From Octopus vulgaris (lineage: Eukaryota): a stretch of 64,000 nucleotides of DNA. Location of the stretch: contig OX597829.1 in NCBI GenBank assembly GCA_951406725.2, forward strand, positions 31,930,001-31,994,000. The letters run 5' to 3'. Shown piece after piece: positions 51,001 to 64,000 of the stretch; position 1 is the stretch's first letter, and every line of letters starts with the position of its first letter. Made by a program: the position numbers.

Positions 51001-54000
51001 AAAACCTCTTTGGTTTTCTTTTTCGATAGGTTGTGACACTTGGAATCAATTTGCCCTATGTTTTTTTCAGGTTGCTTGAAGCTGGCGCAGTTAAGGTGTA
51101 TGCTATTTGCACTCATGGTATTTTCTCTGGCCCAGCCATTTCAAGAATTAACAGTTCTCAGTTTGAGGCAGTTGTGGTTACTAACACAATACCACAAGAT
51201 GAAAGGATGAAACAAGCACCAAAAATTCAGGTAGGATCTGCAGTTAAGATTTTAAATTCTCAAGCAAATTTTGTTTCTTGCTTTTCAATGTTTTTTTAAA
51301 TTTATTTTTACTTTACAGTTAAATGTGCTATATATGTTTCTCTGTAATTGTGAAAATGTCTTATCTTTACATTTCATTAATCATTTAATTTTTATTTAAA
51401 CCCTTTATTCGTTTTTTTTTTTTAAACTTCGGTAATGAATGAGTCACTTTAGTTTCACAACCCTCCCCTCATCTTTAATATGAATCTATTACATATTGAT
51501 CTATATGTAACACATTATACAAATTGCTTCTCGTGTATTCTACTATGCTGTCATTTTCTCCATCTGGTATTAAGTTTGATACCAACATCTTAACATTCAT
51601 TCATCCATTCATTCAACTTTGTTCACTTATTGATGGTTTTCTCTTTCCATTACTCTTACATCCCAACTTTTCTAAGAAATGTGATAGATTAAAAGATGTT
51701 TAGACTTCATAATAGGTAAAAATAATAAACTAGTTTCCTGTCTTGTTCATTCTATTGGCTGACCATTTAGATTTTCATCAGAATGATCTGTTATTGAAAT
51801 GACCTCTCCAGTGGCTAGCTTCCTAACACACAAAATTCTTTGATACTCTTCTTTTTTTTCTCTTTCCCTTTTTCAGTGTATTGATATATCGATGATTTTA
51901 GCTGAGGCTGTACGGCGTACTCACAACGGAGAGTCTGTATCTTACCTGTTTTCCAATGTGCCAATGTAGATGCTGTTGCCAGTTGATTGACACTTTTATA
52001 ATGCAGGTTCTTATAAAAGAAACAAAGAATATCTTCAAAGAAAACATGCATGGTTATTTTGTTTGAAATATATTATTTGCATGTTATTTGTGAAAATGAA
52101 TTATGCACTTAACTAAAAATGATGCTTTAGCTAAATATTTTAGCTTTTTCTTCATAATTTCAGATTAAAACTGCTAAAGACTTTATGGGGTGGGAATTTT
52201 TTTAAATAAAATTTACAAAAATTGGGTTTTGTTTTCACTCCTTTTCTCTCAATATTATTTGTGTGGTTGACTCTGTCTTGATAAAGTCATTGTAAGATTA
52301 TGGTCCATAATTTTAGTGAATATGATTAGCTTAATTTTTCTTTTCATTCACAAGATTAAAATTTTTTTTTTCCTATTCTTGACAGAGAAGCATGTGCATG
52401 CCATTATTCTTAGAATCTTCCTACTCTTGATTTTCTTTGTTAGGCTGCTGTTGCTTTCTTTTCCTCTTGATGAATTCATTACCTTTTCTTTTAATGAAAT
52501 CATTACCTTCTCTAATTGGATATCAAGGTAAAATATTGCTTCAGTGCTCAGATCTCTTAATTTCTGGATAGAAAACCCAAGTATATGTAATTATTTTCTA
52601 TTCATTTCAAGTAGTTTTTAGTGCTTTTTTAGATTTAATTTTCAATCAATTTTTCCAGAGTCTCCTTCAGAATGTTTTATTAAATTCTTGTAATGCAGCA
52701 TCTGCCATTTATGAAAAACAAAATTGGCTATTTTGGAATGTTTCTAAATGAAATTTCAGGCACTTAACATTATTTCTGATCATTATATGGCACAATTTAT
52801 TCAAATCTCTCATTGTTTGCTTCAGTTTTAAATATCAAAACTTTTGTTAATTCTGTCTTATTCTTGGAATATTTTGAGCATTATGCAAAATATTAGAATT
52901 AGAGCAAAACAGGATACTTTTTCTTATTTTATTTTCTCTTGTATTTTTGCTAGTTTTTCCTTCATTTTCTTTTTCCTCTTTCTTTTCAATGCTTTTGTTT
53001 ATCAAAGCAATAGTAAATCTGAGAAGTTTCTTTTTCACATTTGGTCTGTGGGTGTGTATTTATTATTATTGGAAATGCTGCTTCTGCTTCTTTTTTCTTT
53101 CTTGATATAAATTCCAAGAAGCTGTTAGGCTTCTTTAGAGTGCTAGTCAATTGTTGCTCTTTGAAAATAAATGACCCTCATATATATTCATACATATCTA
53201 TTAAATATGCATTTTCTATCCCATCCATGTTTATAAATTGGGCAATATTTGATTGGTAATATTTCTTTGTAGACATGAGCATTAAAAGCCTCTTATCTCT
53301 TTAAATTGTGGTAAAAAGGTGATTTTTTTTAAAGAATTTTTTTATTATTTTGTTTGAAATTTCATTTCACCAATATCTCAATATTCTCTTTCTTTGGGCT
53401 AAGTAATAGGGTCAATCTTGACTAGTTTTATTTTAGGATTTTTGTCTATATAAATCTTTCTTGATCCTCTTAGAAACTAGAGATTCTGATATAAAGCAGT
53501 TAGTCTATAAAAAGAATCATAATATAACAATTGCATGAATCTGGATGAAATTGTTGAAACGACAGAATGATCGTTGGTGTACATTGTGACTGGCTTTTAT
53601 TTATGTCCTTTCATCTGCCAAGGTAGATTGAATACAGTTAGATTGATTACACAAGTGTTTCCACTTATATTTACAAGATATCAATTCCTGGGCATTGATT
53701 TCCTAATTATTAATAAGTAATAAATAATGACTCTGAATTCTAATTTACATCCTAAAGTATTAGATACCTTTTAACTTAAAGATTAGAGGGAGAAAATGGT
53801 CAGAGAAATTTATTTGATAAAACAATAAATAAACAAACATGGTGCAAGTGGAAAGTTCTTTCTAAAATAAGGTTAAGTTTTGTTACTTGCACAGAAGAGT
53901 TCTTAGATCCAGTTTTTGACACACTGAAGTAACTGCTATTTAAGCTGCAGTTTTGTCTCGGTTAAGATTTCTGCAATATAGAACTTTATGGGTCATTGAC

Positions 54001-63000: not shown

Positions 63001-64000
63001 TCATTAAAAGTAATTTATATATGAATATTTTTGAGAAAATTTATTGTGAATAAAATTTAAATTGATTTAAATTAAAATGTTGTTTGGAAATATATCATCT
63101 TCATTGCGTATGTTGTGATCTGATTCATTGTGGATAGTAGAGAGTAGGTGTTGGTGAATCTCATGTTGTCCAAAGGAACAGCAACTAAATTTTGAAATTG
63201 TGTCCCACTCAACAAGGAATATCGTAACAAAAAGATTAACTCTTTAGCATTCAGATTACTTGTTTATTTATTCACATTGTTTTGGATTAATTACGAATTG
63301 TCTTGTAGCTTCAAAATTCCAATGATGTGATTTATTTTTTAGAATGAAACTGTAAGGGAGATATGAGAGGCTGGATCTGGTTGGTTTGAACATAAAACGG
63401 GTTGAATATTTTGGCATGGTATGACTGGTTTAGAATTGCTAAAGGGTTAAAGCAAGGACCCTGAATAATGTCTGGGTGCACCATGCTTAAAAAAAAAAAA
63501 GAAAATACTGAGTAGCTTTGCTCAAATGGGACTAACTTGGAGATAAATAATTAACCTTATGTTGAAGATTAAAGAAAATCGCATACATACTCATAGAAGA
63601 TGGTAAATGTCTGGTATATCTGCTTTCTAAGTTCTATTTGTATCCCAGTCAGGTTTCTTTTTAATTAAGATCGTAAAGTTTGTACATTATCATTTGTTTC
63701 TGACATCTTTTCTGTATTCTCTCTGTCTCAATATTTTTAATTATTTTTATTTTTATTTTTCAGTGTATTGATATATCAATGATGCTTGCCGAAGCCATCA
63801 GGCGGACACACAATGGCGAGTCTGTCTCCTATTTATTCAGCCATGTTCCTCTCTAACTGCTGCTACCTTCCTTGCAAAATTTAGTACCTTTTCAAAATTA
63901 CTTTTGTCATTATTTTCCCCTATACCATGTATCAGAGCAATACTTTTTCATGATTTTTTTTTTTTTTTTTTAAGAAAAGGGAAGAAAAAAAAGGGAAATC

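What the first reader, a model, noticed from the sequence alone, without database searches (positions are those of the whole stretch)
51877..63856. PRPS has two intact, anciently diverged copies of its last coding exon: a candidate alternative-last-exon isoform switch
Seen: exons 7a (51877-51969) and 7b (63764-63856) are both 93 nt and phase 0. Each has a strong pyrimidine tract, a tttcag acceptor and its own stop codon, so either can join exon 6 to give a 318-aa enzyme. The proteins differ only at I/M295, V/I300, N/H315 and M/L318 (human numbering), yet 18 of the 26 identical residues use different codons, including a TCC/AGC serine switch. I saw no homology between the flanking sequences beyond the acceptor, and no second set of upstream exons in the 11.8 kb between them. 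Inference: this is an old duplication with both copies under purifying selection. One locus would then make two isozymes with different 3'UTRs, paralleling what vertebrates achieve with separate PRPS1/PRPS2 genes. I do not know whether it has been described.
Basis: partly seen in the sequence, partly recalled or inferred. Interest (0 to 1): 0.9.

Follow-up and report, generated by a model that had tools for sequence, protein, structure and literature searches.

The report
PRPS gene with two alternative last exons
A single gene for the nucleotide-precursor enzyme PRPP synthetase carries two old, intact copies of its last coding exon, most likely used one at a time to give two near-identical enzymes with different tails and 3' ends.

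Summary
Exons 7a (51877-51969) and 7b (63764-63856) are both 93 nt and phase 0, each with its own acceptor and stop. They differ at 4 of 30 residues. Synonymous sites are saturated, and 18 of 26 shared residues use different codons.

The window holds one set of PRPS exons 1-6. Either last exon completes a 318-codon frame. The 11.8 kb between them holds no PRPS-like or other recognisable coding sequence.

Both copies look constrained. The 7a peptide is 30/30 identical to the tail of a gastropod RefSeq isoform, and 7b is 29/30 identical to the tail of the closest full-length relative.

In oysters, scallops and heterobranch snails, proteins with almost identical bodies carry tails that differ at 5-8 of 30 positions. 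One Nucella gene model contains both exon types in the same order. The pair therefore probably predates the gastropod-bivalve split.

The exon encodes the PRPS filament interface and the C-terminal part of the allosteric site. I read it as a tandemly duplicated, mutually exclusive terminal exon: a known kind of event, with no paper found for PRPS.

No transcript data were available for this locus. The cephalopod origin is unverified, and the PRPS1/PRPS2 parallel is loose.

The parts
31552..31673 (+). PRPS exon 1, from the ATG of the 318-codon form; ends in phase 2
   Evidence: tblastn with 4 mollusc PRPS proteins. Pfam PF13793 E 2.6e-07. Donor TTG|gtatgt.
44820..45003 (+). PRPS exon 2
   Evidence: Pfam PF13793, 96.6 bits. 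Boundaries.
47029..47127 (+). PRPS exon 3
47379..47503 (+). PRPS exon 4
   Evidence: 42 of 42 residues identical to P0131.
50447..50620 (+). PRPS exon 5
   Evidence: Pfam PF14572 and PF00156.
51071..51230 (+). PRPS exon 6. Its donor CAG|gtagga is the shared donor for both last exons and ends on a codon boundary.
   Evidence: Pfam PF14572, 49.4 bits, profile positions 108-157.
51847..51876 (+). Acceptor region of 7a. It has 100% pyrimidine over -25..-4, the strongest tract of the seven acceptors in the gene.
51877..51969 (+). Last exon copy 7a (proximal): 30 codons plus TAG, with Ile295, Val300, Asn315 and Met318.
   Evidence: Pfam PF14572, 33.5 bits against a cut-off of 27, profile positions 160-183 of 184. 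30/30 identical to the tail of Gigantopelta aegis isoform X2, P0046.
51970..63733 (+). Sequence between the copies: the 3' UTR of 7a, then intron if 7b is used. It holds dispersed repeats (for example 54288-54678) and no recognisable coding sequence.
   Evidence: No PRPS hit on the + strand. The ORFs of 45 aa or more that lie inside it had no Pfam match above cut-off. No Rfam family or tRNA. Repeats. The first ATTAAA is at 52164 and the first AATAAA at 52205, which is no more than the window's background density.
63734..63763 (+). Acceptor region of 7b: 77% pyrimidine, similar to the constitutive exons.
63764..63856 (+). Last exon copy 7b (distal): 30 codons plus TAA, with Met295, Ile300, His315 and Leu318. 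Its 3' UTR runs off the window end.
   Evidence: Pfam PF14572, 34.7 bits, profile positions 160-183. 29/30 identical to the tail of P0131, the closest full-length relative. 30/30 identical to the tails of the unnamed P0001 and P0129.

Best explanation
The window holds one PRPP synthetase (PRPS) gene whose last coding exon was duplicated in tandem long ago. Both copies remain functional alternative terminal exons.

The exon 6 donor (51230|51231) joins either to 7a, which is followed by its own stop and 3' UTR, or to 7b across a 12.5 kb intron. Each choice gives a 318-residue enzyme. The two proteins differ only at residues 295, 300, 315 and 318, and the two mRNAs carry unrelated 3' UTRs.

A terminal exon has no donor, so the choice is mutually exclusive by construction. 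It is a competition between splicing and cleavage at the proximal exon and splicing to the distal one.

The exon encodes the hexamer-hexamer filament interface (E298, R301, R302, N305, E307). These residues are identical in both copies. It also encodes the C-terminal segment 306-315 that completes the allosteric site. The variable residues sit beside these elements: 300 is next to R301, and 315 is at the end of the allosteric segment.

My working mechanism is that the two tails fine-tune filament stability and phosphate or ADP regulation, while the two 3' UTRs give separate post-transcriptional control.

Shown: the anatomy, the age, the constraint on the coding sequence, and the presence of both tail types on near-identical bodies in other molluscs.

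Inferred: use of both exons at this locus, mutual exclusivity in vivo, and any functional difference between the isoforms.
For: Anatomy
- The two copies have the same length and phase, and each has its own acceptor and stop.
- There is a single set of exons 1-6, and either copy completes 318 codons.
- Both copies match the same final positions 160-183 of Pfam PF14572 above the cut-off.

Age and constraint
- dN is 0.117 with dS saturated. Differences by codon position are 7, 1 and 19. None of 100000 random placements gave 4 or fewer residue changes.
- There is no flank homology, so this is not a recent or assembly duplication.

Constraint on each copy
- 7a is 30/30 identical to the tail of Gigantopelta aegis isoform X2, although that protein's exon 6 is only 85% identical.
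- 7b is 29/30 identical to the tail of P0131, a 340-residue protein on a 1593-nt contig. A contig that short can only be a spliced transcript, so a relative's mRNA carries a 7b-type tail directly after the exon-6-encoded sequence.

Other molluscs
- I compared 210 pairs among 21 named mollusc proteins. Among the 14 pairs with 6% or less body divergence, 7 have tails differing at 0-1 of 30 positions and 7 at 5-8 of 30.
- Ostrea edulis X1 versus Crassostrea angulata X2: body 4/286, tail 6/30, Fisher p 7.2e-05.
- C. angulata X2 versus unnamed P0256: body 1/286, tail 5/30, p 3.1e-05.
- Bradybaena versus Aplysia: body 9/286, tail 8/30, p 3.5e-05.
- The Ostrea X1 tail is 30/30 identical to the Mytilus and Argopecten tails despite 20-25 body differences.
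- The Nucella lapillus model P0032 is 329 aa, which is 318 + 11. It carries the first 11 residues of a 7a-type exon followed by a complete 7b-type exon, in the same order as here.

Function of the segment (preprint 10.1101/2022.06.27.496812, passages)
- The filament interface is E298, R301, R302, N305 and E307.
- Residues 306-315 contribute to the allosteric site.
- R301A, E307A and truncation at S308 abolish filaments and activity.
Against: - No RNA evidence for this locus could be consulted. The tools hold no eukaryotic genome or read collection.
I could therefore not see two RefSeq isoforms of one species side by side. The cross-species contrasts compare different species or unnamed records.
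- The pairs tested were picked after the screen. The three oyster tests share partners. The scallop pair (p 0.022) and the Candidula/Bradybaena pair (p 0.0086) do not survive correction for 15 tests. Five other pairs were not significant.
- The four residue differences are conservative, so the proteins may be functionally equivalent.
- 7a has the stronger acceptor and is transcribed first. Use of 7b therefore needs regulation that I could not find: the only complementarity between the two acceptor regions was poly-T against poly-A.
- Poly(A) hexamers after 7a occur at background density. The 3' end of 7b lies outside the window.
- The residue states are not clean markers of the two exon types across all molluscs. 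Several gastropod tails combine Ile at exon position 7 with Ile at position 12.
Confidence: 0.72

Rival explanations
1. Only one copy is used. The other is a silent relic that still looks intact, for example because it was switched off recently.
For: There are no transcript data. A two-sequence comparison cannot assign the constraint to each branch. 7a has the best acceptor and comes first, so 7b could be bypassed.
Against: Synonymous sites are saturated, yet neither copy has a frameshift, an internal stop or a radical change. Each copy has a 29-30/30 counterpart used as the tail of a full-length protein in another species. Both tail types recur on near-identical bodies in oysters, scallops and snails.
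Confidence: 0.12
2. 7b is the last exon of a separate PRPS paralogue, or sits where it does because of an assembly mis-join, rather than belonging to this gene.
For: 7b lies 144 nt from the window end, so its downstream context is unseen. Spiders and horseshoe crabs do have separate PRPS genes on different contigs with different tails.
Against: No second set of exons 1-6 lies anywhere in the 64 kb on either strand; the only other hit is a weak minus-strand fragment at 46655-46789. A paralogue ending at 7b would have to enclose this whole gene. The window has no N. The copies are only 70% identical in DNA and share no flank homology, so this is not a haplotype or collapsed duplicate. The Nucella model shows the same a-then-b order in another genome.
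Confidence: 0.05
3. The copies are used in series. The first 33 nt of 7a act as a small internal exon, using the GT of the Val300 codon as donor, and are spliced to 7b. The result is a 329-residue protein with an 11-residue repeat.
For: 7a has GCT|gtacgg after codon 11, and the junction stays in frame. The Nucella lapillus model P0032 has exactly this structure. The Mytilus coruscus and M. edulis models P0191 and P0196 also leave the exon at this point.
Against: These may be gene-prediction artefacts. The repeat would duplicate part of a helix next to the filament interface. The donor lacks G at position -1. 318-residue forms dominate among the relatives.
Confidence: 0.05
4. Both exons are used, but selection acts only on the alternative 3' UTRs (stability, localisation, translation). 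The coding copies are kept merely to complete the enzyme, so the four residue differences are neutral.
For: All five filament-interface residues and residues 301-314 are identical in both copies. The differences are conservative. Each variant state occurs in the single tails of other animals.
Against: In the window, in oysters and in scallops, Ile at position 7 goes with Val at position 12 in one tail type, and Met at 7 goes with Ile at 12 in the other. This hints at retained type-specific residues. The hint is weak, because gastropod tails mix the states.
Confidence: 0.3

Closest known systems
Tandemly duplicated, mutually exclusive terminal exons (Drosophila pip and the 3' variable regions of PGRP-LC), as reviewed in PMC9013439. 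I saw the search-listing abstract and two passages.
   Same: Homologous terminal exons in tandem on one strand, one chosen per transcript, each bringing its own 3' end.
   Different: There are only two copies here, they are much more alike in protein, and they sit in a housekeeping metabolic enzyme. No competing RNA structure was found. Use in transcripts is not shown here.
Tandem duplicated exon substitution events in human genes, PMC9741552. I saw the search-listing abstract and four passages.
   Same: Old duplications that give isoforms identical apart from one homologous segment, usually ancient and under constraint.
   Different: The passages I saw do not address terminal exons, and the terms 'terminal exon', 'last exon' and 'final exon' occur 0 times in the main text. 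PRPS also occurs 0 times in the main text. The supplements could not be read.
Vertebrate PRPS1 and PRPS2 paralogues.
   Same: Two near-identical catalytic PRPS isozymes in one organism.
   Different: The vertebrate pair are whole-gene paralogues. Their 15 differences lie away from the allosteric and hexamer-hexamer sites (PMC10227994, passages). Here only the segment that forms those sites is duplicated.
The C-terminal filament and allosteric module of human PRPS1, preprint 10.1101/2022.06.27.496812. I saw passages only.
   Same: The duplicated exon corresponds to residues 289-318. This range contains interface residues E298, R301, R302, N305 and E307 and the allosteric segment 306-315.
   Different: That work describes one human sequence and engineered mutants. 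It does not test natural variants at residues 295, 300, 315 or 318.

Membership tests
Class I PRPP synthetase (PRPS; Pfam PF13793 plus PF14572/PF00156) | N-terminal Pribosyltran_N domain | tested here: met
   Exons 1-3 match PF13793 profile positions 1-117. Exon 2 alone scores 96.6 bits against a cut-off of 25.
Class I PRPP synthetase (PRPS; Pfam PF13793 plus PF14572/PF00156) | C-terminal Pribosyl_synth domain through to its end, closer to PRPS than to PRPS-associated protein | tested here: met
   Exons 5, 6 and 7a or 7b match PF14572 profile positions 71-183. Against solved chains, both peptides score E of about 5e-12 to 5e-13 to PRPS1/2 and 9e-09 to 2e-06 to PRPSAP1/2.
Class I PRPP synthetase (PRPS; Pfam PF13793 plus PF14572/PF00156) | Complete open frame of about 318 residues | tested here: met
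   Exon lengths sum to 954 nt with either last exon. The joined sequence itself was not built or searched.
Tandemly duplicated alternative (mutually exclusive) terminal exons | Two homologous exons in tandem on the same strand, with the same length and phase | tested here: met
Tandemly duplicated alternative (mutually exclusive) terminal exons | Each copy has its own acceptor and stop, and there is one shared upstream donor | tested here: met
Tandemly duplicated alternative (mutually exclusive) terminal exons | Both copies are under purifying selection and conserved in relatives | tested here: met
   (dN 0.117, dS saturated). (29-30/30 counterparts). (two tail types on near-identical bodies).
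Tandemly duplicated alternative (mutually exclusive) terminal exons | Each copy has its own cleavage and polyadenylation site | tested here: inconclusive
   Hexamers lie from 195 nt after the 7a stop, but only at background density. The window ends 144 nt after 7b with no hexamer.
Tandemly duplicated alternative (mutually exclusive) terminal exons | Transcripts contain one copy or the other | not testable with these tools
Separate PRPS paralogues (PRPS1/PRPS2-like) | A second complete set of exons | tested here: not met
   The window holds only one set. The ORFs of 45 aa or more that lie between the copies had no Pfam hit above cut-off.
Processed pseudogene or retrocopy | Intron-less copy spanning several exons, without a splice acceptor, and decayed | tested here: not met
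   7b covers exactly one exon, starts at a tttcag acceptor and is intact.

The most novel reading that the evidence does not exclude
The a/b pair of last exons arose before gastropods and bivalves diverged, and possibly earlier in protostomes. Supporting the earlier date, an annelid-like unnamed record (P0001) has an exact 7b-type tail directly after exon 6, while the Capitella tail carries the 7a-type Val and Asn at exon positions 12 and 27.

On this reading the pair has been kept for over 500 million years as a switch in the one module of PRPS that forms the filament interface and closes the allosteric site. Molluscs would then tune PRPP synthesis by swapping the enzyme's polymerisation and allosteric tail, and not by using whole-gene paralogues as vertebrates do.
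Probability: 0.3. Interest if true: 0.65.

Novelty: new member of a known kind. Interest (0 to 1): 0.45.

Why it matters
PRPS controls the supply of PRPP for nucleotide synthesis. Its activity depends on filament assembly through the very segment that is duplicated here.

A conserved natural pair of tails would give a ready-made comparison for asking how residues beside the interface (300) and at the end of the allosteric segment (315, 318) set filament stability and sensitivity to phosphate and ADP.

For annotation it also matters. Gene models in several molluscs appear to mis-handle the pair, for example the 329-residue Nucella model and the truncated Mytilus models. Cross-species comparisons of PRPS tails can unknowingly compare non-orthologous exons.

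Tried and rejected
- **Peptide search length.** I re-sent it as contiguous window DNA extended 30 nt into the intron.
- **Cluster members.** Same-species isoform pairs (X1 versus X2) therefore stayed unchecked.
- **Competing RNA structure.** I looked for complementarity between 51231-52300 and 62700-63763. The best match was 14 nt of poly-T/poly-A at 28.2 bits, against 18.3-26.3 bits in 30 shuffles. I rejected this as uninformative.
- **Poly(A) hexamers after 7a.** They are present but at the window's background of 2.6 per kb.
- **Contents of the interval.** Pfam on 120 ORFs gave no hit above cut-off for any ORF lying between the two copies. Rfam gave 0 matches, there are 0 tRNAs, and there are only two small tandem repeats.
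- **Literature.** The searches found no paper on alternative or duplicated last exons in PRPS. The library lacks most subscription journals, and supplements were closed.
- **Joined models.** The joined 318-residue models were not built, searched or folded. All searches were made exon by exon.
- **Other genomes.** tBLASTn of the two peptides in mollusc genomes was not possible.
- **Unnamed vertebrate-type hits.** Unnamed hits with a vertebrate-type tail were not used for any conclusion, because their origin is unknown and could be human.
- **Taxon.** I could not establish the taxon of the window.
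Full report
**Observation**

The two stretches are as described. Exon 7a is 51877-51969 and exon 7b is 63764-63856. Each is 93 nt, follows a T-rich tract ending in tttcag, and ends in its own stop, TAG for 7a and TAA for 7b.

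They share 65 of 93 nt. The peptides differ at exon positions 7, 12, 27 and 30. Of the 26 shared residues, 8 use the same codon and 18 a different one, including TCC versus AGC for serine.

Against solved PRPS chains, exon residues 2-30 align to residues 290-318. The differences are therefore I/M295, V/I300, N/H315 and M/L318.

A tblastn of each peptide against the window finds the other copy at E 2.9e-11 and 8.2e-16, and finds no third copy.

**Gene structure**

I ran tblastn with four mollusc PRPS proteins and inspected the boundaries. There is one set of exons on the + strand:

| Exon | Coordinates |
|---|---|
| e1 | 31552-31673 |
| e2 | 44820-45003 |
| e3 | 47029-47127 |
| e4 | 47379-47503 |
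| e5 | 50447-50620 |
| e6 | 51071-51230 |

All have GT donors and AG acceptors. The coding lengths add up to 954 nt, or 318 codons, with either last exon.

I did not build, search or fold the joined models. Every search was made exon by exon. Pfam places exons 1-3 in PF13793 and exons 5-7 in PF14572. 7a and 7b both match the same final profile positions 160-183, at 33.5 and 34.7 bits against a cut-off of 27.

**Between and around the copies**

- Nothing PRPS-like lies in 51970-63763 on either strand.
- Among the 120 ORFs scanned, none lying in that interval has a Pfam match above cut-off.
- There are no Rfam families or tRNAs.
- The interval does hold dispersed repeats, for example 54288-54678, which has at least four other copies in the window.
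- DNA similarity between the two exon regions is confined to 51852-51944 versus 63741-63831. That is the exon plus about 25 nt of pyrimidine tract.
- The window contains no N.

A recent duplication, a haplotype duplicate and a gap-spanning join are therefore all unlikely.

**Age and constraint**

The 27 coding differences fall 7, 1 and 19 at codon positions 1, 2 and 3. NG86 gives dN 0.117 with dS beyond saturation. In 100000 random placements of 27 differences, none gave 4 or fewer residue changes; the mean was 16.6 and the minimum 9.

A two-sequence comparison cannot by itself say that both branches were constrained. Counterparts in other species can:

- The 7a peptide is 30/30 identical to the tail of Gigantopelta aegis isoform X2 (P0046), whose exon 6 is only 85% identical.
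- The 7b peptide is 29/30 identical to the tail of P0131. This is the closest full-length relative: 42 of 42 residues identical over exon 4, and about 91-93% over exons 5 and 6.
- The 7b peptide is also 30/30 identical to the tails of the unnamed P0001 and P0129.
- P0131 is a 340-residue protein on a 1593-nt contig, which can only be a spliced transcript. In a relative, therefore, a 7b-type exon is joined to exon 6.

**Other molluscs**

The three protein searches listed 120 rows each, out of 1015, 919 and 1103 candidates, and stored 280 proteins.

I compared 210 pairs among 21 named mollusc proteins. Of these, 14 pairs have 6% or less divergence over the body. Seven of the 14 have tails differing at 0-1 of 30 positions and seven at 5-8 of 30.

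| Pair | Body differences | Tail differences | Fisher p |
|---|---|---|---|
| Ostrea edulis X1 vs Crassostrea angulata X2 | 4/286 | 6/30 | 7.2e-05 |
| C. angulata X2 vs unnamed P0256 | 1/286 | 5/30 | 3.1e-05 |
| Bradybaena vs Aplysia | 9/286 | 8/30 | 3.5e-05 |
| Argopecten X3 vs Mizuhopecten X2 | 12/259 | 5/30 | 0.022 |
| Candidula vs Bradybaena | 15/286 | 6/30 | 0.0086 |

Conversely, the Ostrea X1 tail is identical to the Mytilus californianus and Argopecten tails despite 20 and 25 body differences.

Caveats on these tests:
- The 15 tested pairs were chosen after a screen.
- The oyster tests share partners.
- The last two p values in the table fail a correction for 15 tests.
- Five further pairs were not significant: 0.054, 0.085, 0.22, 0.39 and 0.78.

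The pattern is what one expects when non-orthologous alternative exons are compared across species.

The Nucella lapillus model P0032 is 329 aa. It contains the first 11 residues of a 7a-type exon followed by a whole 7b-type exon. That genome therefore holds both exons in the same order as here.

**What the exon encodes**

The following comes from passages of the preprint on human PRPS1 filaments, 10.1101/2022.06.27.496812:
- The hexamer-hexamer interface is E298, R301, R302, N305 and E307.
- Residues 306-315 contribute to the allosteric site and are stabilised in the filament.
- R301A, E307A and truncation at S308 abolish filaments and nearly all activity.

All of these residues lie in the duplicated exon and are identical in 7a and 7b. 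The variable residues lie next to them.

Passages of PMC10227994 say that the 15 differences between human PRPS1 and PRPS2 lie away from the active, allosteric and interface sites.

**Mechanism**

A terminal exon has no donor, so one transcript can end in only one of the two. The sole exception would be use of a cryptic donor.

7a is transcribed first and has the strongest pyrimidine tract of the seven acceptors, 100% against 55-86% for the others. Use of 7b must therefore depend on damping the 7a acceptor or its cleavage site. I found no conserved or significant RNA pairing that could do this. Poly(A) hexamers after 7a occur at background density.

Whether selection acts on the four residues, on the 3' UTRs, or on both remains open.

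**Comparison with what is known**

Tandemly duplicated terminal exons chosen one at a time are a described kind, for example Drosophila pip and PGRP-LC (PMC9013439, abstract and two passages).

Five literature searches found no paper on this in PRPS. Supplements and most subscription journals were out of reach. RefSeq-style isoform names on mollusc proteins suggest that annotation pipelines already model both tails. I therefore file this as a new member of a known kind.

**Origin of the window**

The best named matches to exon 6 are heterobranch gastropods at 89-91%, followed by bivalves. No cephalopod is named in any listed row. The lists are truncated and PRPS is very conserved, so the taxon stays open.

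**Verdict**

It is plausible but unproven on use of both exons at this locus, and loose on the vertebrate parallel.

Noticed in passing
window 46655-46789, minus strand (intron 2 of PRPS): A weak PRPS-like stretch aligns to protein residues of about 194-245. It runs across the exon 5/exon 6 junction with no intron and contains two stops. E is 0.045-0.12 with four queries. It may be a decayed retrocopy fragment, or it may be chance.
   Followed up: partly
window 31510-31551, just upstream of the exon 1 ATG: An in-frame extension, closed by a stop at 31504-31506 and lacking an ATG, resembles the N-terminal extension of the 333-340-residue mollusc PRPS forms (P0131, P0186). This suggests an unseen upstream 5' exon and a second, longer N-terminal isoform.
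   Followed up: partly
window 51907-51917 (codons 11-12 of exon 7a): The Val300 codon creates GCT|gtacgg, a donor-like site. 7b has ATC at this position and no GT. Gene models in Nucella lapillus (P0032), Mytilus coruscus (P0191) and M. edulis (P0196) all leave the exon exactly after this codon.
   Followed up: partly
window 6492-7040 (-) and 44305-44658 (+): Two ORFs match the Pif1 helicase 2B domain (PF21530, E 3.1e-15 and 1e-10). They are probably remnants of Helitron-like elements. The second lies just upstream of PRPS exon 2.
   Followed up: no
window 54288-54678, with copies at 23192-23604, 8420-8852, 2349-2770 and 3902-4278: A dispersed repeat of about 400 bp at 77-85% identity. A second family lies at 63264-63453, 55636-55816 and 45043-45225, and one of its members sits about 310 nt upstream of 7b.
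   Followed up: partly
proteins P0121 and P0122 (unnamed ena records, not in the window): These are long ORFs made of three to four near-identical copies of a PRPS last exon with its flanks, with a period of about 131 residues. They are open only because TGA was read as W. They show a recent tandem array of the last exon in some other animal genome.
   Followed up: no
protein P0001 (unnamed ena record, not in the window): A single ORF runs through exon 6, a short open intron of 39 codons, and a last exon 30/30 identical to 7b. Its exon 6 resembles that of the annelid Owenia. In that genome a b-type exon directly follows exon 6, with no a-type exon between them.
   Followed up: no
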